Positions 10,866 through 22,448 of a stretch of 64,000 nucleotides of DNA are shown here, in pieces (position 1 is the stretch's first letter; each line of letters opens with the position of its first letter). The notes beneath the pieces are model-generated. The model was not told where the DNA came from and made no database searches. It was given only the letters and a program-made list of their open reading frames with translations. This DNA comes from an uncultured Actinomycetota bacterium (GTDB lineage: Bacteria; Actinomycetota; Actinomycetes; Mycobacteriales; CADCTP01): NCBI GenBank assembly GCA_963785005.1, contig CAWATS010000014.1:170179-234178 (forward strand), written 5' to 3'. A program made the position numbers and the translations under genes.

Positions 10866-10879
10866 CCGGCGACCGTAGC

Positions 10880-11200
10880 CCGATCACCAGATCACCCGGC
10901 CACTCAGATCACCCGGTCACCCGGGTCACCCGGCACCCAGGTCCACCCGGCTCACGCCAGATCACCCGGGTCACGCCAGATCACCGGGTCACCGGATCAC
11001 CCGATCACCGGGCCACCGGATCGACGCCCGGTCACCCGGTCACCCGGGTCACCAGATCGCCGGGTCACCGGGTCACCGGGTCCGCCAGATCACCGGTCAC
11101 CCGGTCACCCGGCCGCCAGATCGCCGGGTCACCCGGTCACCCCGGCCGCCAGATCACCGGGTCACCAGATCACCGGGCCACCCGGTCACCCGGTCACCCG
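10880..11200. repeat. ~320-bp degenerate octamer tract (TCACCNGR)n
   Basis: Roughly 35-40 units such as TCACCCGG, TCACCGGG, TCACCAGA, 7-10 nt long. Intergenic. Confidence 0.9.
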
Positions 11201-12336: not shown

Positions 12337-12963
12337 TCAGCGCCGGTGCGAGCGGGGAGACGCTCCGCGGGCGCGGCGGCGGCCGGACGTCGGCGCGGCG
12401 ACCCCCCGGCCGCCCGCGCCGCGGCGTGGCACGGGAGGGCCCTGGGCTAGGCCGACAGCGGCGGCCGGCGTCCGGGAGCCGCGGCCGGGCGGCTTCCACG
12501 GCGTGACCAGGGCGCCCCGCGTGCGTACGGTCATCCAGCCGGCGGCCGCCTGGGCGATCAGCCCGAGCAGGCCGAGCGGCAGGCCGATCCCCGGCCCGAC
12601 GGACAGCACCGGAAACGTCTCGACCACCGGCAGTGCGAAGGGGAAGAAGCCGGCCCGCCCGAAGACCACCGCGTCCAGGCTGGCCGCCACCGCGACCGCG
12701 CCGATCCCGCCCACCGCGGCCGTGAGCGCGGCGACCCCGGTGGGCACCGGCCGGCTGGGCAGCAGCAGCACCCAGAGCCCGCCGAGCGTCACCCCACCGA
12801 GCAGCGGCAGCGCCCAGGCGGGCGAGCCGGTCCAGGCCGTCGCCTCGGCCATGCCGCAGCCGGCGACGGTGCAGATCCGGTCGCGCTGCCAGGGCAGGAC
12901 ACCGGCGAGCAGCAGCATCGGGACCGAGGCGGCCACCAGGACGTCGGCACGCAGCCGGGACAC
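12337..12963 (-). CDS. Hypothetical integral membrane protein
   Basis: About four hydrophobic segments. TAGGCT lies 6 nt before the GTG. Confidence 0.7.
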   Translation of the reverse strand: MSRLRADVLVAASVPMLLLAGVLPWQRDRICTVAGCGMAEATAWTGSPAWALPLLGGVTLGGLWVLLLPSRPVPTGVAALTAAVGGIGAVAVAASLDAVVFGRAGFFPFALPVVETFPVLSVGPGIGLPLGLLGLIAQAAAGWMTVRTRGALVTPWKPPGRGSRTPAAAVGLAQGPPVPRRGAGGRGVAAPTSGRRRARGASPRSHRR

Positions 12964-13060
12964 GGCGGCAGCCTAGCCGGACCGCCCCCACAGCCAGGCG
13001 TCCGGGCACCCACGGACGCCGATTGGCAGGGACGCCTGGCTGGGCCCGGCCGCGGCGCCT

Positions 13061-13138
13061 GGCCGGCGCTCCGTCAGGCCGGCGCTCGCAGCGCCTCAGG
13101 CCGGCGCTCCGTCAGGCCGGCGCTCCGTCAGGCCGGCG
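13061..13138. repeat. 16-bp intergenic tandem repeat
   Basis: GGCGCTCCGTCAGGCC three times, with one interrupted copy between the first and second. Confidence 0.8.
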
Positions 13139-13335
13139 TACGCGGCGCCGTGCCGGGTCGACCGACCGAACCGGCCGGCGCCGTCCCGCGGGTCGTGACC
13201 TCGGCACCCACTGGCCGGTTCGGCTGCCGGTCGCGCGGTCCGGTTCCCGAGTGCGCAGCTGGACGCCGGCTCGCGCTCGCGGCCCGCGCGCCGAACCACG
13301 CGCCCGAGGGCACCGGCGCCGTTCACGGGCGCCGG

Positions 13336-14664
13336 CTACCGGACCGCCTGGAGGCGCCGTTGCTCGGTGCCGGTCGGGAGCGGGGCAGCGACCGGGGTCG
13401 GCACCGGGACCTCGACCGGCGGCCTGGCTGGCGCGGGCAACGGCTCGGTGAGCAGCGTCCGGCAGGCGAGGTTGAACGCCCGGGGCGCGTTCACCGCCAC
13501 TACCCCGGCCAGCCGCCCGCGCTGCAGGTAGCTGGCCACCACGCCCGCCCGGGCGGTGTCCCGCCGGCCCGGCCGCAGCTCGGTCAGCACCACCTCGGCC
13601 GTGCGGTCGAGCCGGCCGCAGACCTGGATGCGCAGCCCGTTCTGGTCGGACCAGAAGCGGGGGAGCAGCGCGACCGGCGGCACCTCCCGGTTGCCGGCGA
13701 GCAGCGTGCGGGCAGCACCCTGGCCCTGCTCCACCGCGCTGATCCACTGGCCGACCCGGCCGGGCGTCGTGCCGTACCGCCGGTTCGGCCACCGGGCCAG
13801 CGCGCCCGCCGCGACCACCCCGTCCACGCCGGTAACCCGCAGCGTCTCGTCGCAGAGCACGCCGTCGGTCCGGTCGACCGGCGTGCCGGCCAGCCACTCG
13901 ACGTCGGGCCGTTCCCCGGCCGCGACGACGACGACGTCGGCCCGCACCGTCTCGCCGCTGTCCAGCAGCAGCCGCCAGCCGTCCCGCCGGCGCTCCGCCA
14001 GCGTGACCGACCGGCCGAGCCGCAGCTGGACGCCGGCGGCGCGGTGTGCCGCGGTGACCAGGGTGCCGACCTGCTCGCCGACCGAGCGCGGCATCACGTG
14101 CGGCGCGGCGTTGACCAGGACGGCCTCCCGCGCCATCGCGACCACCGTGCAGGCCACCTCGCAGCCGGTCAGTCCACCGCCGATGATCGCCACCCGGCGC
14201 GCCCTGGTCAGCGCCTCGCGCAGCGTCCAGGCGTCGGACAGGGTGTGCAGCATGTGCAGGCCCGGCTGGCCGGCGGGCCAGTCCGCCGGCAGCACGGCCC
14301 GGGTCCCGGTCGCGATGACCAGCCCGTCGTAGCCGAGCGCCTCGCCCGTGCTCAGCCCGACCCGCCGGGCGTACGGGTCGAGTGACTCGGCCCGGACGCC
14401 GGACCGCCACCGCACGTTCGGGCAGCCCCGCAGGTCGAGCATCGTGTCCTGCGGGCGCTGGTGCCCGTCGAGCATGCCCTTCGAGCAGGCCGTGCGGTCG
14501 TACGGCGGGACCGGCTCGGCGCTGAGCACCGTGACGTCGCCGGTGAAGCCCTGCCGGCGCAGCTCGCCCGCCGCGGCCCATCCGGCCGCGCCGCCGCCGA
14601 CGATCACGACCCGGTCCCGCGGACCGTACGTCGGCCGAACCGGACGGACCACATGGAGGCTCAT
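13336..14664 (-). CDS. NAD(P)H-dependent ferredoxin reductase (FAD, putidaredoxin-reductase type)
   Basis: IVGGGAAG, PPYDRTACSK, LVIATG, IIGGGLTGCEVA, VVAAG, Reductase_C FWSDQNGLRIQ. Confidence 0.92.
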   Translation of the reverse strand: MSLHVVRPVRPTYGPRDRVVIVGGGAAGWAAAGELRRQGFTGDVTVLSAEPVPPYDRTACSKGMLDGHQRPQDTMLDLRGCPNVRWRSGVRAESLDPYARRVGLSTGEALGYDGLVIATGTRAVLPADWPAGQPGLHMLHTLSDAWTLREALTRARRVAIIGGGLTGCEVACTVVAMAREAVLVNAAPHVMPRSVGEQVGTLVTAAHRAAGVQLRLGRSVTLAERRRDGWRLLLDSGETVRADVVVVAAGERPDVEWLAGTPVDRTDGVLCDETLRVTGVDGVVAAGALARWPNRRYGTTPGRVGQWISAVEQGQGAARTLLAGNREVPPVALLPRFWSDQNGLRIQVCGRLDRTAEVVLTELRPGRRDTARAGVVASYLQRGRLAGVVAVNAPRAFNLACRTLLTEPLPAPARPPVEVPVPTPVAAPLPTGTEQRRLQAVR

Positions 14665-14770
14665 GGCCGCCCTCCCCGTCCGGTCGCCGGCCGCTGCCCG
14701 GCGGGCCGGCTCCGGTGCTGACCGTCGGCGTCACGCCGGGGACGGGGACGGGGACGGCTCCCGCGCGGGC

Positions 14771-16032
14771 TCATCGCCGGCCCCCCGTCCGGCCGCCGCC
14801 GACCCCGCGCAGCGGCCGGAGGTGGTGCCGGCCGGTGTCCTCGAGCTCGGACGGCGGCTCGGCGGGGGGATGGTGCGGCGGCGACCCCGGCGGCTGCCGC
14901 ACCATCCCCGGCTGGGACCGCGCCGCCGCGGGGTGCAGTCGCACGGCGGCGGGCTGCTGGAACACCGGCCCGGAGTGGTCCGGGACCGCCTTGGGCCGCT
15001 GGAAGACCGGAGCCGGCCGCGGCGGTGGGCTCTGCTGTGGGCCCTGCGGCTGGCCCTTCGGCTGGCCCTGGGCCGGGCTCGGCGCCTGCCCAGGTGGTGG
15101 GCTCTGCCGGGGCGGCGGTGGGCTCTGCGGCTCGCTGTACGCCGGGCCCCGCGCCGGGCTCTGCGCAGGGCTCTGCAGCCAGGGCTCTGCACGGAACCCT
15201 GCGGGACGTCGTTCCCGGCCGGCTCGGCCGCGTCGGACCGGGCGACGACGACCGCGGTGGGCAGCCGGCCGAGCGTGATGGCGCGCGCCGGGCAGACGAC
15301 GGCGGCCCGCATCGCGGCCTCCGCCTGGTCGCTGGGAGCAACCGACTTGTACGCCAGCCGCTGGTCGCTGCGCAGCGAGAAGATCCCCGGCGCCTCGTGC
15401 TCGCAGAAGCCGAACGACGCGCACCGGCCCGGGTCCACGCTGACCGTGATCTCCTCCGCCCGGCGCCGGCTGCTGGCGCGGTCGAGCAGCAGCCGCGGCA
15501 GCCGCGCGACCGGCGCGAGAGTCATGGCGCCGGCCACGACGACGACTGCCCAGGCGACCGCCACGGCGACCCGCGGGCCGGCCGCGGCGAGCTCCGATCC
15601 GGACACCAGGATGTGCGCTGCCACCAGGGTGAATGCGAGGTAGCCGAGCGAGTGCAGGGCCCGCCAGCGGTGGTAGCCGAGCCGCCGCTGCACCAGTACG
15701 GACAGGCCGGAGGCCAGCAGCATCTCCAGCGCCAGCACGCCCATCCCGACGCCGACGGGATCGGCCCGGTTCGCGAACGGCACCACCACGTCCAGGCCGC
15801 TGACCTTGCCGTGCGGGTCCGCGAGCTGCGCCAGCCCGTGCACGATCCCGAGCCAGAGACCGAAGAGCGTGACGTGCATGTGGATGCCGTGGACGGTGGC
15901 GTGCCGGATCCGGGACCGGGCCCAGCCGCTGCGCAGCACGGTGCCCCACAGGGTGCCCACCCAGAGGGCGGCGAACGAGGTGAAGCCGGCGACGGCGGCG
16001 ATCAGGTGCACGCTCTCCTGCGCTGTCCGCAT
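14771..16032 (-). CDS. Ferric-reductase-like di-heme TM domain fused to [3Fe-4S]-type ferredoxin, Pro/Gln-rich tail (probable frameshift near 15180)
   Basis: TM His pairs H-x13-H (IHMHVTLFGLWLGIVH) and H-x12-H (LHSLGYLAFTLVAAH). Ferredoxin VDPGRCASFGFCEHEAPGIF...VCPARAI. The tail frame is ambiguous (stop 14771 or 14731). Confidence 0.85.
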
Positions 16033-16118
16033 CGGGGCGGGACCACTCCTTCTCGGGTACCGGGGGGCGGGGGCGGCCCCGGTCAGCACGGTCGGGCCGC
16101 CCCCGCGGTGCAGGTCGC

Positions 16119-16745
16119 TCAGTAGTCGCCGCCGCCGGACGGCGGCGCGACGGGCGCGGGCACCCCCTTGGGGATGCAGGTCAGGTTCTTCGCGCCGCTC
16201 GGTGCGGCCACCCACCAGGTGCCGGAGACGCCCTGGCCCTTCCACGCGCCGGGCTTCGGGTCGCCGGCGTACCGGTAGAGCGGCCAGCCGCTCAGCGTGA
16301 GCTGCTTCCGGCCGTCCGCCCAGGTGATCGTGTCCACCTTGGCCGGGTCGACCCCGGTCAGCCGGGGCTTGCCGTCGGTCCAGGCCGGCGGCCAGACCTT
16401 GGCGCAGGTGCCGGCGCAGGCCGACTTGGCGGCGGCCTTGGTGTCCTTGTCGAAGCGGTAGAGCACCCAGCCCTTGGCGTCGGTCACGACCGTGCCCATC
16501 TTGGGGATCGTCTTGGCTACCAGCGCTCCCGGGGCGGCCGCGGGGGCCGCTGCCGGGTCGGGCGTCGCCGAGGCCGCGGGCGCTCCGTAGCCGTCACCGG
16601 CGTCCCCTGCCGCCGGCTGCTCGGCCGCGGCCTCTCCATAACCGCCATCCCCGGCCGTGGTGGTGTAGCCGCCGCACGCCGACGCCAGCGCGAGCGCTCC
16701 GCACGCGGCGACGGCGAGTGCCGCCCGGCGCATGATTGTAGTCAC
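16119..16745 (-). CDS. COG4315 / Yx(FWY)xxD-repeat lipoprotein
   Basis: AGAGGA RBS before GTG 16745, lipobox LASAC, GWVLYRFDKD, SACAGTCAKVWPP, GWPLYRYAGD, GQGVSGTWW. Confidence 0.9.
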   Translation of the reverse strand: MTTIMRRAALAVAACGALALASACGGYTTTAGDGGYGEAAAEQPAAGDAGDGYGAPAASATPDPAAAPAAAPGALVAKTIPKMGTVVTDAKGWVLYRFDKDTKAAAKSACAGTCAKVWPPAWTDGKPRLTGVDPAKVDTITWADGRKQLTLSGWPLYRYAGDPKPGAWKGQGVSGTWWVAAPSGAKNLTCIPKGVPAPVAPPSGGGDY

Positions 16746-16871
16746 GTCGAATCCTCTCTCGATTCGGGAGATCGGCGGGAAATCGGCCGCCGACCCTTTT
16801 CCACGAAATGCGCCGCGGTCCGGTTCATGACCCCGTCGAGAATTGCTCGCAGCATTTCCCGCGACTTTGTA

Positions 16872-16907
16872 CGGCGTACCACCGCGGGCGCCCGCGGTGG
16901 TACGCCG
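16872..16907. terminator. Perfect 36-bp palindrome between the DUF1996 and lipoprotein genes
   Basis: CGGCGTACCACCGCGGGC|GCCCGCGGTGGTACGCCG with no spacer and no U-tract. Terminator or mRNA-stabilising hairpin. Confidence 0.65.
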
Positions 16908-16953
16908 CCCCGCGCCGCGACGCACCGCGGCGCAAGTCCTGCGGCTGCCGGCC

Positions 16954-18018
16954 TCAGCAGCGGCGGCCGGAATTGATGCACTCGACGGCCCGGCGCATCA
17001 GCGACTCCGGCATCACGTTCGTGAAGTCGTTGTGGTCGGTGACGGCCTTCCGCAGCTGCTCCGGGAAGGTGTCGAGGGCGAACGACCGGCCGGGCGCGAC
17101 CAGGTAGCTCAGCGTGATCCTCAGCTGCGGGATCGCGACCGTACCCTCCGGGCACGCGCCGGTCTCCCGGTCGGCGAATGCCACATGCGTCCGGTGGTTG
17201 AGGCTGTCGTTGTTGGCGCCGTCCCAGCAGCCCGGGAAGTCGCTGACGCGCTGTACCAGCTGACCGCGCGGGCACAGCGGGTATTGCGTCGAGCTGACCT
17301 TGCCGCGGGTGCCGGAGCAGGTCCACTGGGCTCGGGCATTGGGTGCATTCGGGCCGTTGGTGATGGCCTTCGCATCCCCGGTGATGATTCGCAGCAGAGG
17401 CGCCATCTCGACGACCTTGGCCTGCGCGTTGCCGCGGAACTGCAGCGAGACCCGGACCGGGGTGAGGATCCGGCCGAGGTTGCCGTCCAGGCCGCCGCCC
17501 GGCTGGTCGGCGTCGGCGCCCTGCCGCCGGATGTCGCGTACCACCGGCCAGAAGTAGGTGGACTTGTCGCCGAGCCGGCAGGTGGTGCCGGCGGCGGAGA
17601 GGGACTCGTCGGTCGAGTTGCCGTCGGTCGAGAGGTTTCCGACGTAGTCGTGCACGTGGTGCGCGGCGTTGGTCACCCCCGGCGAGGTGATGAAGTTGTC
17701 CGAGTTGCGGTGCCCGTTGAGGTTGCGGCCGCAGCGTGAGGTGAACGAGCCGGTGGACGCGTCCGGACCGGCCGCCGGCGCCGCGGCGGCGTCCGGCGCG
17801 TCCGCGATCCGGACGTAGTCCTCGGGATTGGTGGTCGGGTGGTTGCGGTGGTCCGTGCTGCCGGTGCCGTCGGCGCGCTCGAGCGTCGCCTGCACGGTCA
17901 CCGGATCCTCGGCGGCGGAGGCCAGCCGCACCCCCAGCCCGGTGGCGCCGCCGAGGGCGACCACCGCGAAGACGGCGGCCATTCTCCGCCTCCTGCGGAC
18001 TGTTTTCTGGTCCGGCAT
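16954..18018 (-). CDS. Secreted DUF1996 domain protein
   Basis: GAAGGGAG RBS, Arg-rich signal peptide, NFITSPGV..AHHVHDYVGN, TTCRLGDKSTYFWP, FPGCWDGANNDSLNHRTHV, CPEG..IPQL, DHNDF. Confidence 0.9.
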   Translation of the reverse strand: MPDQKTVRRRRRMAAVFAVVALGGATGLGVRLASAAEDPVTVQATLERADGTGSTDHRNHPTTNPEDYVRIADAPDAAAAPAAGPDASTGSFTSRCGRNLNGHRNSDNFITSPGVTNAAHHVHDYVGNLSTDGNSTDESLSAAGTTCRLGDKSTYFWPVVRDIRRQGADADQPGGGLDGNLGRILTPVRVSLQFRGNAQAKVVEMAPLLRIITGDAKAITNGPNAPNARAQWTCSGTRGKVSSTQYPLCPRGQLVQRVSDFPGCWDGANNDSLNHRTHVAFADRETGACPEGTVAIPQLRITLSYLVAPGRSFALDTFPEQLRKAVTDHNDFTNVMPESLMRRAVECINSGRRC

Positions 18019-18148
18019 GATGCTCCCTTCTCGGTGTTTCAAGACAGGTCGGACTCCGCGGCGAACCCGCGAGGTCCTTCTCGTGCCAGCCGGCCGGTCC
18101 ACGGTGGCGGCCGGTGCCGGGCGGCGGGATTCGGTGGCATGTCGCCGC

Positions 18149-18937
18149 TCAGCTCCACGACCGGCGGGCGGCGACGGCGAGGTTGGCGATCGCCACCAGG
18201 CCCACGAGGGTCACCACCAGGGGTGTCGTGATCGGTCCGCGCGGTGCCGGCGGGGCGAGCGTGTGCGCCTCCGTCGGTGCGACCAGGCCGGTGCTCTCCA
18301 GCAGCGACATGTGCCGCATCACCACCTCCACGGCGGTCTCCGCGAACGGCCGGACGGCGGTGTTCCGCGTCGTCGCCCGCGCCTCGGACACGACGCTGAA
18401 CACCCGGCCGTGCGCGACCCGCAATCGGTTCGCGAACGCGACGTCGAAGTCGCTGCCCCGCAGCTCGGAGAGCTCGGCCATCCAGCTCCGCTGGTCGGAG
18501 TTGGGCTGGTCGGGGAGTGGGACCTGCAGCTTGCGAGCGAGCTGGCGAACCTGCTCGTCGAGCCGCCGGTGGTCGGCGGCCAGCAGCCGGCCCACCTCCT
18601 TGACCCGCCGGTTGCCCGCGTGGGTCTGTGCCTGATCGCCCGTCGGGATCTCCCAGAGACCGGCCAGTCGGACGCGCACCAGCAGGTCCCGGTCACTCGC
18701 CGTGAGCGGCCCCCAGGAGGTGTCGGACGTCACGTCTGGTGCGGCAGCCGCCACGCCCGGGCCCAGCGGCGTGTCCTGGCCGGGGCCGGACAGCCAGCCC
18801 ACCGTCAGGACGGCCACTGTGCCGGTCACCAGCAGGTTTCCGAGCCGGAGCCACCGGTGGCGCCTTTCCCGCCGAGCGGAAAGGGCCGGTCGGGCCGGCC
18901 GCCGCGACGCACATGCGGCGGGACAATCCTCGGGCAT
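18149..18937 (-). CDS. DUF4142 (ferritin-like) protein with N- and C-terminal hydrophobic segments
   Basis: DRDLLVRVRLAGLWEIP, VKEVGRLLAADHRRLD, LRGSDFDVAFANRLRVAHG, VMRHMSLLE. Confidence 0.87.
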   Translation of the reverse strand: MPEDCPAACASRRPARPALSARRERRHRWLRLGNLLVTGTVAVLTVGWLSGPGQDTPLGPGVAAAAPDVTSDTSWGPLTASDRDLLVRVRLAGLWEIPTGDQAQTHAGNRRVKEVGRLLAADHRRLDEQVRQLARKLQVPLPDQPNSDQRSWMAELSELRGSDFDVAFANRLRVAHGRVFSVVSEARATTRNTAVRPFAETAVEVVMRHMSLLESTGLVAPTEAHTLAPPAPRGPITTPLVVTLVGLVAIANLAVAARRSWS

Positions 18938-19211
18938 CCATCCTCCGGGTCTATTTCCCGTGTCCGTCGGGTGGTGCGACGACTAATGTGAGCACCGATG
19001 CGTCGGTGCTCCGGTTGGCGGTCGGCGGTCGGGCGACCACGGGGGCGGTGCGTCGCGCCCCGGCTGGGTCCCGGCCGGCGGATAACTCCGCCGCCTCGTG
19101 CTGAGCGGGGATCAACCTGGCAGCCGTTCGGCCCAGAATCAATACCCCTCACGAAATTCGTAATGGTTAACTTCGGAACGTTACTTAGCCCATCTGAGTG
19201 ACGGAGGGCGC

Positions 19212-19255
19212 TTGCGACCGGCGCGGTCGTGCGGCAGAATCGAACATGTGTTCGA
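19212..19255 (+). promoter_or_regulatory. SigA-type promoter with overlapping LexA (SOS) box
   Basis: -35 TTGCGA (19212-17), 17-nt spacer, -10 CAGAAT (19235-40), then TCGAAC-ATGT-GTTCGA at 19240-19255. Confidence 0.85.
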
Positions 19256-19269
19256 CTCCGGAGGTGGCC

Positions 19270-19728
19270 GTGCCGAGCCGCCCGCTCACCCGCGACCGGG
19301 CCGCCGAGGTGCGGCTGCACACCTGGGCAGGCACCCACGCGAGCAAGGTCGTGAAGCGGACGATGAGCCGCGCGGCGGCGGTCGCCGTGCTCTCGCTGAT
19401 CGCGCCGTGCCGGCCGGAGCTGGTGCGGCTGGTGATCGACCGGATCGCCTCCGGGAGCCCGACGGCCGCGGACTGGCCACCGCGGTCCGTGCAGCTCGAC
19501 CTGCTCCGCTCGGCCGAACGGGTGGCACTGGGTCTCGTGCCTCTCGCCGGGCCGGAGGGCGTGTCCGTGGAGCAGGTCACCTACGCGGACAAGCTCGGCT
19601 ACCGCCGCCGCGTGCTGCGGTTGCGCCGGCACGGCGTCGTCGTCGGCGACTACGGCACCGTCGAGGAGCTCTCCCGGCACGTCGACCTCGCCGCGTTGCG
19701 TGAGGACGACGGCCACCCGCCCGACTGA
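19270..19728 (+). CDS. Hypothetical protein, putatively LexA-regulated
   Basis: GGAGGT RBS before GTG 19270. Normal amino-acid composition. No family recognised with confidence. Confidence 0.78.
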   Translation: MPSRPLTRDRAAEVRLHTWAGTHASKVVKRTMSRAAAVAVLSLIAPCRPELVRLVIDRIASGSPTAADWPPRSVQLDLLRSAERVALGLVPLAGPEGVSVEQVTYADKLGYRRRVLRLRRHGVVVGDYGTVEELSRHVDLAALREDDGHPPD

Positions 19729-19759
19729 CGGGGTTGCGGCCTGGAGTTGACTGTCCGGC

Positions 19760-20863
19760 ATGAGCGTCGTCATCGCCGTGGGCACCCGGAAGGGACTGTG
19801 GGTCGCCAGGTCCGATGCCGAGGGGGAGTGGGCCCTCGCCGGACCGAGCCTGCCGATGCGGGAGGTGCCGGCGCTCGCGTTCCTGCCTGATCCCGCCGGC
19901 GGGGTGCCGGAGCTGCTCGCCGGCGTCCGCAGCGAGCACTGGGGCCCGACGGTCGCCCGCTCCGCGGACCTGGGCGACACCTGGCAGGAGACCGAGCAGG
20001 CAGCGGTGCGCTTTCCCGCGGAGACCGGGGCCGCGCTGGAGCGGATCTGGCAGGTGCAGCCCGACCCGGCCCGCCCCGACGTGGTGTGGGCCGGCTGCGA
20101 GCCGACGTCGCTGTGGCGCAGTGGCGACGGCGGCCGGAGCTTCACGCTGGTCGAGGGCCTGTGGGAGCACCCGCACCGGGCGAGCTGGCTCCCCGGCGCC
20201 GGCGGCGCGGCCGTGCACACGATCGTCCCGGACCCGGCGGACGCCGACCGGGTGCTGGTCGCGATGAGCACCGGCGGGGTGTACGCGAGCGGCGACGGCG
20301 GCGCGAGCTGGGAGCCGCGCAACCGGGGCATCCGGGCCGGGTTCCTGCCCGAGCCGGAGCCGGAGCACGGCCAGTGCGTGCACAAGATCGCGGCCGACGC
20401 CGGCGGCCCGCAGCGGTTGTACGCGCAGAACCACGGCGGCGTCTACCGCACCGACGACGCCGGCCGGCGCTGGACCTCGATCGACGCCGGCCTGCCGGCG
20501 GACTTCGGCTTCCCCGTGCTCGCCCACCCCGGGCGGCCCGGGGTCGCCTGGGTCGTGCCGCTGGTCGCGGACGAGCACCGGCTCCCGCCGGGTGGCCGGC
20601 TGCGGCTGCACCGCACCGAGGACGCGGGCGAGTCCTGGCGCGAGGTGGGACGCGGCCTTCCGGACCAGTCGTGGACCGTCGTGCTCCGCGACGCCGCCTG
20701 CGTGCTGGCGCCCGACCCGGCCGCGCCCGACGGGCCGGCCGTGCTCGCCCTCGGCACCCGGGACGGCTGCGTGTACCTGAGCGCCGACTCCGGGGACTCG
20801 TTCGTGCAGGTCGCGGCGCACCTGCCCGACGTGCTCTGCGTACGGGCGGCTGCGGTGCCGTGA
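19760..20863 (+). CDS. BNR/Asp-box beta-propeller (sialidase-like) protein
   Basis: VGTRKGLW, Asp-boxes SADLGDTW, SGDGGRSF, SGDGGASW, TDDAGRRW, TEDAGESW, SADSGDSF, and GQCVHKI..YAQNHGGVY. No signal peptide. Confidence 0.9.
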   Translation: MSVVIAVGTRKGLWVARSDAEGEWALAGPSLPMREVPALAFLPDPAGGVPELLAGVRSEHWGPTVARSADLGDTWQETEQAAVRFPAETGAALERIWQVQPDPARPDVVWAGCEPTSLWRSGDGGRSFTLVEGLWEHPHRASWLPGAGGAAVHTIVPDPADADRVLVAMSTGGVYASGDGGASWEPRNRGIRAGFLPEPEPEHGQCVHKIAADAGGPQRLYAQNHGGVYRTDDAGRRWTSIDAGLPADFGFPVLAHPGRPGVAWVVPLVADEHRLPPGGRLRLHRTEDAGESWREVGRGLPDQSWTVVLRDAACVLAPDPAAPDGPAVLALGTRDGCVYLSADSGDSFVQVAAHLPDVLCVRAAAVP

Positions 20864-20924
20864 CCGGGGACAGCGACCCCGGCGTGGCCGGGCTGGGCGG
20901 CGCGCCCGCCGGAGTGGCACAGCC

Positions 20925-21212
20925 GTGAGCAGGATCGTGGTGCGGTTGCCGGCGGTGCTGGCCGAGCACGCGGAGGGCCGGCGCTCGGTCGAGGTCGAGG
21001 TGGCGGCGGGCGGCACGGTGGGGCAGGTCCTCGACGCGCTCACCGGGCCCCGGCCTCGGCTGGCCTGGCGGATGCGGGACGAGACCGGCGCCCTGCGCCG
21101 CCACGTCAACGTGTACGTCGGCGAGGACGACATCCGGGCCGCCGCCGGGCTCGGCACCCCGGTGTCGGACGGCGACGTCGTCACCGTGCTCCCGTCCGTC
21201 GCCGGCGGCTGA
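20925..21212 (+). CDS. MoaD/ThiS family ubiquitin-like protein
   Basis: Beta-grasp pattern LRRHVNVYVGEDDIR and C-terminal LPSVAGG. Confidence 0.93.
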   Translation: MSRIVVRLPAVLAEHAEGRRSVEVEVAAGGTVGQVLDALTGPRPRLAWRMRDETGALRRHVNVYVGEDDIRAAAGLGTPVSDGDVVTVLPSVAGG

Positions 21213-21362: not shown

Positions 21363-22448
21363 GTGACGGCAGCGGACCGGGCACCGCGCCGGCTCGCGCG
21401 CTCCGGCGCGCTCCGGCTGGTGCTGTCCGTCGTGCTGGCCGTCGTGCTCGTCTGGTTCGTCGCCACCAAGGTGGACCTCGCCAGCGCGCTGGCGGCGATA
21501 CGGGCGATGAGCTGGCTCGAGCTCGCCACGATCGCCGCCGTCACCGCCTGGAACCTGGTGACCTACTGGGTGCTGTGGATCGCGGCGACCCCGGGACTGC
21601 ACTGGCCGCAGGCGGTGACGCTGGCCCAGTCCGGCACGGCGCTGACCAACACGGTGCCGGGCGGGTCGGCGCTCGGCGTGCGGCTGGCGTACGAGATGCT
21701 CGACTCCTGGGGCTTCTCCCGGGGGCGCAGCAGTCAGGCGGTGCTGGTGACCGGTGCGTGGAACATGGCGATCAAGCTGAGCCTGCCCGTCCTCGCCGTG
21801 GCGTTGCTGGCCCTGCAGGGCGATGCGACCGGGACCCGATTGACGGCCGGGATCGTCGCGACCGGCGTGCTCGCGGTGGCGGCGGGCCTGGCCGGCCTGG
21901 TGTTCCGCGGGGACGGCACGGCCCGGCGGCTGGGTGCGACGGCCGGGCTGGTGGTCAGCCGGGCCTGCCGGCCCGTCGGCCTCCACCCGACCGTCTCCCG
22001 CTGGGGACAGTCGACAGTGGACTTCCGCGCCAAGACGGTCGAGCTGCTGCGGCGTCGCTGGGCGCCGATCACCGCGGCCGCCGCCGTCAGCCATCTGTCG
22101 CTCTATCTCGTGCTGCTGGTGACCCTGCGGCACGTCGGGGTGACCGACGCGGCGGTGGGCTGGGCCGAGGTGCTCTTCGTCTTCGCCACCACCCGCGCCC
22201 TCACCGCGGTCCGGATCACGCCCGGCGGCGCCGGCGTGGTCGAGGCACTGCTGATCGGCGGGCTCACCGCGGCCGGCGGCGTCGCGGCCACCGTGACGGC
22301 CGCGGTGCTGGTCTACCGTGCCCTCACCTGGCTGCTGCCGGTGCCGCTGGGCGGGCTGACCTGGCTCGGCTGGCGGCTGAGCAAGGCCCGGCGGGACGGG
22401 GTCGCCGGCGCGGCTCCGGCCGAGGCGACCCGGGTGGCCGGCGCGTGA
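21363..22448 (+). CDS. LPG-synthase TM / YbhN (UPF0104) flippase-like membrane protein
   Basis: NTVPGGSALG, ITPGGAGVVEALLIGGL, AVLVYRALTWLLPVPLG, and many TM helices. Confidence 0.9.
   Translation: MTAADRAPRRLARSGALRLVLSVVLAVVLVWFVATKVDLASALAAIRAMSWLELATIAAVTAWNLVTYWVLWIAATPGLHWPQAVTLAQSGTALTNTVPGGSALGVRLAYEMLDSWGFSRGRSSQAVLVTGAWNMAIKLSLPVLAVALLALQGDATGTRLTAGIVATGVLAVAAGLAGLVFRGDGTARRLGATAGLVVSRACRPVGLHPTVSRWGQSTVDFRAKTVELLRRRWAPITAAAAVSHLSLYLVLLVTLRHVGVTDAAVGWAEVLFVFATTRALTAVRITPGGAGVVEALLIGGLTAAGGVAATVTAAVLVYRALTWLLPVPLGGLTWLGWRLSKARRDGVAGAAPAEATRVAGA

What the first reader, a model, noticed from the sequence alone, without database searches (positions are those of the whole stretch)
13336..18937. 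Candidate undescribed trans-membrane electron-transfer system serving secreted DUF1996/DUF4142/lipoprotein partners
Seen: five co-oriented genes encode (a) a membrane-anchored DUF4142 protein, (b) a secreted DUF1996 protein with His clusters (HHVHD, NHRTH, DHNDF) and several Cys, (c) a lipoprotein with CxxxC, (d) a membrane domain with both bis-His heme-b pairs fused to a [3Fe-4S]-type ferredoxin, and (e) an FAD/NAD(P)H ferredoxin reductase. No P450 or dioxygenase, the usual clients of such reductase/ferredoxin pairs, is in the window. Known: ferric-reductase-family domains (MsrQ, FRE, NOX) move electrons from cytoplasm to the outside through two hemes. To my knowledge DUF1996, COG4315 and DUF4142 have no settled function. 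Inference: NAD(P)H to reductase to ferredoxin to di-heme to lipoprotein to DUF1996, making DUF1996 an extracytoplasmic redox metalloenzyme. This is analogous to MsrPQ or to reductant supply for copper monooxygenases, with DUF4142 as a possible metal chaperone.
Basis: partly seen in the sequence, partly recalled or inferred. Interest (0 to 1): 0.85.

Follow-up and report, generated by a model that had tools for sequence, protein, structure and literature searches.

The report
NAD(P)H-driven electron export to secreted metalloproteins
Five neighbouring genes of a soil actinobacterium appear to form a wire that carries electrons from the cell interior across the membrane to secreted histidine-rich proteins of unknown function, and the same design recurs in many relatives.

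Summary
The five co-oriented genes are real: DUF4142, DUF1996, a Lipoprotein_15 lipoprotein, a five-helix ferric-reductase-type (FRD) membrane domain fused to a three-Cys ferredoxin, and an FAD ferredoxin reductase.

In 37 related loci with 5 kb or more on both sides, the reductase follows the fusion in 37. DUF4142 is adjacent in 31. It is always accompanied by DUF1996 (17) or by an unrelated secreted His/Met-rich protein, "c3" (14). The lipoprotein is present in 15.

All 6 genomes of a 301-genome class sample with adjacent DUF4142 and DUF1996 genes also encode an FRD-type four-His membrane protein plus an NAD(P)H module. Five of them use a different module, a NuoF-like/ferredoxin fusion.

A complex model docks DUF4142's C-terminal helix on the heme-bearing helices (ipSAE 0.64, best control 0.00).

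Window-type DUF1996 often stands alone: 12 of 15 assessable metagenome clusters. Its confident model has no solved relative.

Verdict: a probable, undescribed variant of FRD trans-membrane electron transfer. DUF4142 is the dedicated partner and the lipoprotein is optional. The chemistry is unknown.

The parts
18149..18937 (-). Gene a: DUF4142 (ferritin-like) protein, 262 aa, with an N-terminal signal/anchor and a C-terminal membrane helix. Conserved E96, H123, D127, H176, H209, E214.
   Evidence: Pfam. Alignment of 18 orthologues. The complex model places residues 230-261 against helices 4 and 5 of d.
16954..18018 (-). Gene b: secreted DUF1996 protein, 354 aa from the ATG at 18018. His 120/121/123, 275/278 and 329 (with Asp331) and 8 Cys are conserved.
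   Evidence: AlphaFold2 model pLDDT 92.7. No solved fold relative.
16119..16733 (-). Gene c: Lipoprotein_15 (COG4315-type) lipoprotein, 204 aa, with an invariant CxxxC followed by WPP.
15247..16032 (-). Gene d, core: a five-helix FRD-type membrane domain (His51/65 on helix 2, His127/140 on helix 4) fused to a cytoplasmic three-Cys ([3Fe-4S]-type) ferredoxin domain.
14771..15246 (-). Gene d, Pro/Gln-rich tail. The frame changes by one base near 15170-15185 inside a short repeat. In the shifted frame the tail ends in a conserved C-terminal peptide. Read straight through, the ORF ends at 14731 and loses that peptide.
   Evidence: GC3 frame plot. tblastn of a 99%-identical relative. DNA. Repeat. 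Tail motif in relatives.
13336..14664 (-). Gene e: FAD/NAD(P)H ferredoxin reductase, 442 aa.
   Evidence: Pyr_redox_2 and Reductase_C. Below every NCBIfam equivalog cut-off. Directly downstream of d in 37 of 37 full-flank loci.

Best explanation
The cluster encodes a modular system that carries electrons from cytoplasmic NAD(P)H to the outer face of the membrane.

Proposed path:
1. The FAD reductase (e) oxidises NAD(P)H.
2. It reduces the single-cluster ferredoxin domain at the cytoplasmic end of d.
3. Electrons cross the membrane through two b-type hemes held by the His51/His65 and His127/His140 pairs.
4. They are taken up outside by the membrane-tethered ferritin-like DUF4142 protein (a). 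Its C-terminal helix packs against the heme-bearing helices, and its conserved Glu/His/Asp set probably holds a metal.
5. DUF4142 then serves a secreted His-rich client: DUF1996 (b) here, the unrelated protein c3 in other lineages.

The lipoprotein (c) and, elsewhere, an ECF sigma/anti-sigma pair are accessories.

Shown: domain content, conserved ligand-type residues, gene linkage.
Inferred: heme and cluster binding, the direction of electron flow, DUF4142 as acceptor, and any catalytic role of DUF1996.
For: Domain calls and invariant residues.

Given d (50 loci from at least six actinobacterial genera or families):
- The reductase is adjacent in 48 of 50. The two misses are loci cut 10 and 35 bases after d.
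- In the 37 loci with 5 kb or more on both flanks: reductase 37, DUF4142 31, DUF1996 17, c3 14, lipoprotein 15.
- DUF1996 and c3 never occur together. DUF4142 never occurs without one of them.

Given adjacent DUF4142 and DUF1996 in an even sample of 301 genomes of the class:
- Six genomes have the pair, and all six encode an FRD-type protein and an NAD(P)H module within about 5 kb.
- One is like the window. Five have an FRD-like protein that keeps the four His (hhalign probability 92%, E 5.8e-7), followed by a Complex1_51K/NADH_4Fe-4S/Fer4_15 fusion.
- Two unrelated NAD(P)H input modules beside the same secreted set is hard to explain without a functional link.

Metagenome clusters with flanks: DUF4142 and FRD occur together (3) or not at all (12), never singly.

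Complex model of d(1-190), two hemes and a(70-262): median ipSAE 0.64, best of 3 controls 0.00. That mark was reached by 58 of 80 solved complexes and 2 of 110 mismatched pairs. Runs agree in at least 57% of contacts, and the partner's pLDDT is at least 83. The tool warns that these counts hold only roughly here, because my own alignments and a ligand were used.

No P450, Rieske, ApbE or molybdo-enzyme match lies in the window.
Against: - Close DUF1996 homologues (57-69% identical) lack both DUF4142 and FRD in 12 of 15 dereplicated metagenome clusters with adequate flanks. The same holds in 5 of the 7 class-sample DUF1996 loci that I fetched (L053, L054, L055, L061, L062). DUF1996 therefore does not generally need this supply.
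- Six of 37 full-flank loci have d and e with no DUF4142. So do three loci from the class sample, L057-L059.
- More distant DUF4142 paralogues (35-49% identical) sit without any FRD.
- Ferric_reduct scores below Pfam's cut-off in the window protein itself.
- The window copy of d carries a frame change that removes a conserved C-terminal peptide if it is real.
- In the second architecture DUF4142 has no C-terminal helix, so the modelled interface cannot be general.
- No metal, heme or activity has been measured for any part.
Confidence: 0.6

Rival explanations
1. Extracytoplasmic metal reductase and metal handling. The di-heme protein reduces Cu(II) or Fe(III) held by DUF4142, as eukaryotic FRE and STEAP proteins do. 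DUF1996, c3 and the lipoprotein are then metal-binding or metal-trafficking proteins rather than enzymes.
For: - DUF4142 gives a weak match to DUF305 (E 0.0071). One Atlas cluster of DUF4142 proteins carries DUF305 on 15% of its members.
- CopM, made of two DUF305 domains, is a periplasmic and extracellular copper-binding protein (PMC4335983; title, abstract start and passages read).
- c3 has invariant His and a Met-Met pair on an Ig-like sandwich.
- Fungal DUF1996 deletions change sensitivity to several metal ions (PMC4738358; abstract read).
- ECF sigma/anti-sigma pairs lie nearby in 8 of 37 loci.
Against: - No transporter, P-type ATPase or multicopper oxidase appears among the conserved neighbours.
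- The DUF305 match is below cut-off (16.9 bits against 27).
- The fungal study reports no change in Cu2+ sensitivity.
- The c3 model is of low confidence (pLDDT 64.7), and its matches are generic sandwiches.
Confidence: 0.22
2. Electrons pass from the outer heme to the CxxxC lipoprotein and from there to DUF1996, while DUF4142 only delivers a metal.
For: - CxxxC is invariant in 14 lipoprotein orthologues.
- The lipoprotein gene lies between b and d in the window and in L006, L007, L063 and L093.
Against: - The lipoprotein is present in only 15 of 37 full-flank loci, against 31 for DUF4142.
- The closest relatives, L001-L005, have a, b, d and e but no lipoprotein gene.
- The complex model favours DUF4142 at the heme helices. 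The lipoprotein itself was not modelled against d.
Confidence: 0.08
3. A NOX-like oxidase. The outer heme reduces O2 to superoxide, and the secreted proteins use or detoxify the product.
For: - The His spacing of 14 and 13 is the same as I recall for NOX heme ligands (recalled, not tested).
- Bacterial NOX enzymes exist (PMC5676040, PMC11031084; search listing only).
Against: - There is no fused FAD/NADPH dehydrogenase domain.
- The tight linkage to a docked DUF4142 argues for a protein acceptor.
Confidence: 0.06
4. Chance neighbourhood. d and e are an ordinary ferredoxin/reductase pair for a cytoplasmic oxygenase, and a-c are unrelated envelope proteins.
For: - e resembles dioxygenase-type reductases (HcaD model 193 bits, below its cut-off of 450).
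- d-e occur without a-c in 6 of 37 loci.
Against: - The ferredoxin is fused to a membrane domain with four invariant His.
- Linkage to DUF4142 holds across lineages in which d is only 43-57% identical.
- A non-homologous NAD(P)H module occupies the same place in five other genomes.
- No P450 or Rieske gene lies in the window.
Confidence: 0.04

Closest known systems
MsrPQ (YedYZ) periplasmic methionine sulfoxide reductase system
   Same: A heme-b membrane protein of the FRD family passes electrons outward to an extracytoplasmic partner encoded next to it.
   Different: - The MsrQ NCBIfam model scores 16 bits against a cut-off of 130.
- No molybdo-enzyme gene lies in the window: five Oxidored_molyb matches, all on other contigs.
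- The input here is a fused ferredoxin plus an NAD(P)H reductase.
- The partner is DUF4142.
NOX / FRE / STEAP ferric-reductase-domain enzymes
   Same: Two His pairs on two helices with spacing 14 and 13 (the NOX comparison is recalled). NAD(P)H is the ultimate donor. Transfer is trans-membrane.
   Different: - The dehydrogenase is not fused.
- A Fer4_13/15 ferredoxin domain sits in its place, and a separate Pyr_redox_2 reductase follows.
- The protein has five helices rather than six, by eye. A sixth may be lent by DUF4142 (model only).
Flavinylated MsrQ-like systems of Actinobacteria (PMC8238504; passages read)
   Same: An actinobacterial PF01794 protein with NAD(P)H input. That paper notes 31 clusters with a NuoF-like protein, which resembles the second architecture found here.
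   Different: - Those systems are defined by ApbE and an FMN-binding protein.
- The window has no ApbE, while the two other FRD genes of the same genome each sit beside one.
- The paper's passages do not mention DUF4142 (0 occurrences).
- Its supplementary tables could not be opened and may list such clusters.
FRD superfamily fusions catalogued by Zhang et al. 2013 (PMC3591440; passages read)
   Same: FRD domains fused to an electron-transfer domain (Fer2, Rieske, DOMON).
   Different: The fusion here is to a Fer4_13/15 single-cluster domain. The passages name Fer2 only, and '4Fe-4S' and 'Actinobacteria' have 0 occurrences in that text.
Class I P450 / Rieske dioxygenase redox chains (reductase plus ferredoxin)
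   Same: A Pyr_redox_2/Reductase_C reductase with a small three-Cys ferredoxin of the actinobacterial type.
   Different: The ferredoxin is welded to a membrane heme domain, and no oxygenase client is nearby.
CopM (DUF305) copper-binding protein of Synechocystis
   Same: A secreted helical protein rich in His, in the Pfam family nearest to DUF4142.
   Different: The DUF305 match is below cut-off. CopM is not membrane-docked and is not linked to an FRD protein in what I read.

Membership tests
Ferric reductase domain (PF01794) superfamily | Profile match over the curated cut-off | tested here: inconclusive
   The window protein scores 20 bits against a cut-off of 28. Many homologues at 50-65% identity carry PF01794 in the precomputed column.
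Ferric reductase domain (PF01794) superfamily | Two His pairs on two membrane helices able to bind two b hemes | tested here: met
   His51/65 and His127/140 are invariant in 12 sequences. They are also kept in the remote FRD-like protein of the second architecture.
Ferric reductase domain (PF01794) superfamily | Heme b actually bound, and electron transfer across the membrane | not testable with these tools
   Needs spectroscopy on the purified protein.
MsrPQ | MsrQ equivalog score, and a neighbouring MsrP (Oxidored_molyb) gene | tested here: not met
   16 bits against 130. None of the 5 Oxidored_molyb matches in the genome lies on the window's contig.
NOX / FRE | Fused FAD- and NAD(P)H-binding dehydrogenase domain | tested here: not met
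   Only Fer4_13, Fer4_15 and Ferric_reduct were found on d.
Flavinylated MsrQ-like system | ApbE or an FMN-binding protein in the cluster | tested here: not met
   The two ApbE matches are on contigs 5 and 7, beside the other FRD genes, not in the window. FMN_bind itself was not searched.
[3Fe-4S]-type single-cluster ferredoxin (Fer4_13 / Fer4_15) | Profile match, and a Cys-x5-Cys ... Cys-Pro pattern without the fourth Cys | tested here: met
   25.6 bits against 24.5, and 24.0 against 22.4. C204, C210 and C247 are invariant, with Phe207 at the fourth position. The cluster type itself is inferred.
DUF1996 (PF09362) | Profile match, and the published H-x-H, D-x-S-x-Y-W-x-P, C-P and H-x-D signature | tested here: met
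   75 bits against 27, matching profile positions 4-204 of 237. The signature residues are present and conserved (signature taken from the abstract of PMC4738358). The final G-W of the tail is absent.
DUF4142 (PF13628) | Profile match | tested here: met
   82 bits against 27.
DUF305 / CopM | Profile match over cut-off | tested here: not met
   16.9 bits against 27, E 0.0071.
SCO0930 family lipoprotein (NF040526) | Equivalog score | tested here: not met
   166 bits against 275, matching 2-185 of 311 positions. The Pfam Lipoprotein_15 match is met at 93 bits.
Ferredoxin-NAD(P)+ reductase of oxygenase systems (HcaD, AndAa) | Equivalog score | tested here: not met
   The best is 192.9 bits against 450. 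The general Pyr_redox_2 plus Reductase_C architecture is met.

The most novel reading that the evidence does not exclude
Actinobacteria have a modular 'outside redox' system with three new elements:
- DUF4142 is a new kind of membrane-docked extracytoplasmic electron acceptor. It completes a five-helix FRD protein.
- DUF1996, a family shared with fungi, and the unnamed c3 family are new secreted redox metalloenzymes.
- These enzymes are powered by cytoplasmic NAD(P)H through either a ferredoxin-FRD fusion or a NuoF-ferredoxin plus FRD pair.
Probability: 0.3. Interest if true: 0.85.

Novelty: new variant of a known kind. Interest (0 to 1): 0.7.

Why it matters
- It would give a first functional handle on three widespread families without known function: DUF4142, DUF1996 (also in fungal secretomes) and Lipoprotein_15. 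It would do the same for a fourth, unnamed family, c3, which has 1536 homologues and is mislabelled 'Pecanex-like' in public records.
- It would add a new way for Gram-positive cells to power chemistry outside the membrane, beside MsrPQ, DsbD and the flavinylated systems.
- The system is directly testable, because cultured Micromonospora, Asanoa, Catellatospora, Cryptosporangium and Streptomyces-type strains carry one or the other version.
- If DUF1996 proves to be a redox enzyme, the many fungal members become candidates for the same chemistry.

Tried and rejected
Lines that led nowhere or were rejected:

- **c3 as a divergent DUF1996.** Rejected: hhalign aligns only the signal peptides (probability 27.5%).
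- **c3 as a cupredoxin.** Not supported. The model is weak (pLDDT 64.7). Foldseek returns generic Ig-like sandwiches: best E 3.3e-4 to a macroglobulin-domain complex, then SoxYZ.
- **Sequence and profile searches of the PDB for a, b, c and c3.** Nothing below E 0.08.
- **ESM Atlas.** No usable hit for b outside its own family. For a, only DUF4142 clusters below 0.9.
- **Promoter and terminator scan.** One promoter-like site, overlapping the start of c, and one terminator-like site on the opposite strand. Neither is informative.
- **Rfam.** No match in 12500-19800.
- **Other conserved neighbours in the related loci.** Read by eye only: helicase-, ligase-, deaminase- and MFS-like starts. They are lineage-specific, so I did not scan them.
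- **Distant DUF4142 paralogues of large Streptomyces-like genomes.** They have no FRD nearby and sit near what look by eye like heme-synthesis genes. Not followed up.
- **Literature.** Searches for DUF1996 (23 papers), DUF4142 (12), COG4315/PF03640/Lipoprotein_15/SCO0930 (18), and 'ferric reductase domain' with ferredoxin, MsrQ and fusion (12) found no description of this system.
  - One paper's gene table lists an SCO0930-type lipoprotein, a 480-aa 'ferredoxin', a hypothetical protein, DUF1996 and DUF4142 side by side in a Kitasatospora, without comment (PMC10714260; passages read). I could not fetch those sequences.
  - Supplementary tables of PMC8238504 were not available and may bear on the novelty claim.

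Full report
**What is there**

The window is very G+C-rich (0.71-0.79 across 10-23 kb). It comes from a 4.0-Mb, 81.6%-complete assembly of 28 contigs. Between 13336 and 18937 five genes lie head to tail on the minus strand.

Pfam assigns them as follows:
- DUF4142, 82 bits.
- DUF1996, 75 bits.
- Lipoprotein_15, 93 bits, two repeats.
- Fer4_13 and Fer4_15, together with a sub-threshold Ferric_reduct match (20 bits against a cut-off of 28).
- Pyr_redox_2 with Reductase_C.

NCBIfam places none of them in an equivalog:
- The lipoprotein reaches 166 of the 275 bits needed for the SCO0930 family.
- The membrane protein reaches 16 of 130 for MsrQ.
- The reductase reaches 193 of 450 for HcaD.

Likely starts, chosen by third-position G+C and upstream purine-rich stretches, are 18937, 18018, 16733, 16032 and 14664. 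The gaps between the genes are 86-220 bases.

**The membrane-ferredoxin fusion**

240 homologues were found among the 8000 candidates scored. Many of the more distant ones carry PF01794 together with the two Fer4 families.

In an alignment of 12 diverse members the following are invariant:
- His9, His44, His51, His65, His127 and His140.
- The three ferredoxin Cys (204, 210, 247).
- Phe at the position where a four-Cys cluster would have its second Cys.

His51/65 and His127/140 lie on the second and fourth of five hydrophobic segments and are spaced 14 and 13 residues apart. I recall this as the spacing of the heme ligands of NOX-type proteins. That comparison is from memory.

The loops after segments 1, 3 and 5 are Arg-rich. 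This places the ferredoxin domain, and hence the reductase, in the cytoplasm. That is my reading by eye, not a program's.

After the ferredoxin comes a Pro/Gln-rich tail of very variable length in relatives (267-560 aa in total). In many relatives it ends in a short conserved peptide.

In the window this tail changes frame by one base near 15170-15185, inside a 12-14-base repeat. Four results show this:
- The third-position G+C moves to another frame.
- A 99%-identical relative aligns in two frames.
- The DNA shows five bases where three or six would be needed between two repeat copies.
- Tandem Repeats Finder marks the spot.

I cannot tell whether this is an assembly error or a real mutation. 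The core domains are untouched either way.

**Is the neighbourhood more than chance? Starting from the fusion**

A scan of one genome per species returned 52 loci. Fifty of them encode the whole fusion. They come from:
- Mycobacteriales-type and other Actinomycetota assemblies.
- Micromonospora, Asanoa and Catellatospora.
- Kineosporiaceae.
- Cryptosporangium.

By tblastn with the window's proteins:
- The reductase follows the fusion in 48 of 50. The two misses are loci cut 10 and 35 bases after it.
- DUF4142 lies within 6 kb in 40, DUF1996 in 17 and the lipoprotein in 19.
- An ECF sigma factor lies nearby in 11 and a zf-HC2 anti-sigma factor in 10 (Pfam on one representative each).

Clustering all predicted genes of these loci exposed a further frequent neighbour, which I call c3. 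It is present in 19 loci. It is a secreted protein of about 350 aa. Its 180-residue C-terminal domain has invariant His, a Met-Met pair and four Cys.

What is known about c3:
- It has no Pfam family.
- It is not detectably related to DUF1996.
- It has 1536 homologues, named 'hypothetical' or 'Pecanex-like protein 1' in public records.

Restricting to the 37 loci with at least 5 kb on both sides gives: reductase 37, DUF4142 31, DUF1996 17, c3 14, lipoprotein 15. DUF1996 and c3 never occur together, and DUF4142 never occurs without one of them.

Many of these loci are kin (seven Asanoa, six Catellatospora), so the counts are not independent events. The pattern nevertheless holds across lineages in which the fusion is only 43-57% identical to the window's.

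**Starting from the secreted genes**

In an even sample of 301 genomes of the class:
- DUF1996 occurs in 38 genomes.
- The DUF4142 subfamily occurs in 32.
- A single stretch covering both halves of the fusion occurs only in the window's genome and one other. Two more genomes have the halves about 1 kb apart.

These searches score only the best 6-8 candidates per genome, so misses are possible.

Comparing coordinates, DUF4142 and DUF1996 are adjacent in six genomes. One is the window's own. In the other five (loci L056, L060, L143, L144, L147) the pair is followed on the same strand by two genes.

- The first has no Pfam match. It does have a membrane domain that aligns with the fusion's profile at 92% probability (E 5.8e-7), and all four His are in register.
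- The second is a Complex1_51K FMN domain, a NADH_4Fe-4S domain and a C-terminal Fer4_15 ferredoxin in one protein.

This second architecture has the same logic built from different parts. A NuoF-like dehydrogenase carries the ferredoxin, and the FRD-like protein stands alone. A search of two of these genomes with the window's fusion found only ferredoxin-type matches and no close FRD copy.

A gene table in a paper on a Kitasatospora strain lists the same five products side by side, without comment (PMC10714260; passages read).

**Results that cut the other way**

A metagenome scan centred on window-type DUF1996 gave 80 loci, which fall into 47 clusters at 90% identity. Only 15 clusters have at least 1.5 kb upstream and 2.5 kb downstream. 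Of these, 3 have both DUF4142 and an FRD gene, and 12 have neither. Among the 12, one cluster (L122) shows a 79-residue DUF4142-like open frame that fell below my coverage threshold.

Other results against a strict dependence:
- Five of the seven class-sample DUF1996 loci that I fetched (L053, L054, L055, L061, L062) also stand alone.
- Three fusion-reductase pairs from that sample have none of the secreted genes. So do six of the 37 full-flank loci.
- DUF4142 paralogues at 35-49% identity in large Streptomyces-like genomes have no FRD nearby.

The firm link is therefore between the FRD module and the DUF4142-plus-client pair. It is not between the FRD module and DUF1996 as such.

**The secreted proteins**

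DUF4142:
- Eighteen orthologues share Trp95-Glu96, His123, Asp127 (nearly invariant), His176, His209 and Glu214. In a ferritin-like helical bundle these would be candidate metal ligands. That reading is an inference.
- In the first architecture the protein ends in a hydrophobic helix followed by basic residues.
- In the second architecture it has only an N-terminal anchor.

DUF1996:
- Five of the His remain nearly invariant in a 49-sequence alignment reaching 29% identity.
- The published fungal signature (H-x-H, D-x-S-x-Y-W-x-P, C-P, H-x-D) is present apart from its last two residues (abstract of PMC4738358).
- An exhaustive search found 2034 representatives at E up to 0.001.
- The AlphaFold2 model is confident (pLDDT 92.7, pTM 0.89), yet it has no Foldseek match in the PDB at E up to 0.001.
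- No sequence or profile search found a solved relative for any of the four secreted families.

**Contact between the membrane protein and DUF4142**

- The three runs scored 0.48, 0.67 and 0.64, median 0.64. The best of three controls scored 0.00.
- That mark was reached by 58 of 80 solved complexes and by 2 of 110 mismatched pairs.
- The runs agree in at least 57% of contacts, and the partner's pLDDT is at least 83.
- The tool cautions that these counts hold only roughly here, because my own alignments and a ligand were used, and that a model is not a measurement.

The confident interface is the C-terminal helix of DUF4142 (230-261) against residues 121-172 of d, plus residues 93 and 97. That region includes the helix carrying His127 and His140. 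Membrane helices are easy to pack in silico, and the second architecture lacks this helix. I count this result as moderate support only.

**What it is not**

- The genome's single P450 match and its five Rieske matches are on other contigs.
- Its five molybdo-enzyme matches are also elsewhere.
- The genome has two more FRD genes, and each sits next to an ApbE gene. Those fit the flavinylated MsrQ-like systems described for Actinobacteria (PMC8238504; passages read).
- The window's system is a third, different one.
- The FRD superfamily survey lists Fer2, Rieske and DOMON fusions but, in the passages I read, not this one (PMC3591440).

**Most likely mechanism and its limits**

I commit to the following path, at about 0.6 for the path as far as DUF4142: NAD(P)H, then the reductase FAD, then the ferredoxin cluster, then the inner heme, then the outer heme, then DUF4142, then DUF1996 (or c3).

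I give about 0.3 to the further claim that DUF1996 is a redox enzyme.

The main rival is that the electrons reduce a metal handled by these proteins. Three observations fit it:
- DUF4142's nearest Pfam neighbour, DUF305, includes the copper-binding CopM (PMC4335983).
- c3 has His and Met-Met motifs.
- Fungal DUF1996 mutants change in metal sensitivity, though not for Cu2+.

The two readings overlap, and only metal analysis and activity assays can separate them.

**Novelty**

Trans-membrane electron transfer by FRD proteins is a known kind. The input (a ferredoxin fusion with a separate reductase, or a NuoF-ferredoxin fusion) and the output (a docked DUF4142 with interchangeable secreted clients) are not described in any paper that my four literature searches returned. 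I rate it a new variant of a known kind, with interest 0.7.

Noticed in passing
window 10879-11200: An 8-base unit repeated 38.5 times in tandem (71% matches) in what looks like an intergenic stretch. Its translation gives the odd Pro/Gly/His-rich ORFs listed there.
   Followed up: no
window 13061-13138: A 16-base unit repeated 4.5 times just downstream of the reductase gene's stop.
   Followed up: no
window 14771-15246: The disordered tail of the membrane-ferredoxin protein ends, in many relatives, in a short conserved peptide. The window's one-base frame change would remove it. Its role, perhaps docking of the reductase, is unknown.
   Followed up: partly
own genome, contig 5 at 92329-93737 and contig 7 at 842832-844216 (outside the window): Two further FRD-type genes, each beside an ApbE flavin transferase gene. 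These are probably the flavinylated MsrQ-like systems already described for Actinobacteria.
   Followed up: partly
L056:10525-13079, L060:10577-13344, L143, L144, L147: A second architecture: an FRD-like four-His membrane protein followed by a NuoF-like FMN/4Fe-4S protein fused to a Fer4_15 ferredoxin, downstream of DUF4142 and DUF1996.
   Followed up: yes
L008:7684-8715, L020:7621-8724 and 17 other loci: The c3 family: a secreted protein with a conserved 180-residue domain (invariant His, Met-Met and four Cys), no Pfam family and 1536 homologues. Public records call it 'Pecanex-like protein 1', which looks like a naming error.
   Followed up: partly
window 19760-21212 and 21363-22448: Upstream neighbours on the plus strand: a BNR/sortilin-like repeat protein, a ThiS-family small protein and an LPG_synthase_TM membrane protein. 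They are not conserved with the cluster in other lineages.
   Followed up: partly
L148-L153 (Streptomyces-like genomes): More distant DUF4142 paralogues, sometimes two copies 2 kb apart, lie near genes that by eye resemble hemY and hemQ. No FRD gene is nearby.
   Followed up: no
window 16000-19500: G+C is a few points lower (0.71-0.74) over genes a-c than over d-e and the flanks (0.76-0.79).
   Followed up: no
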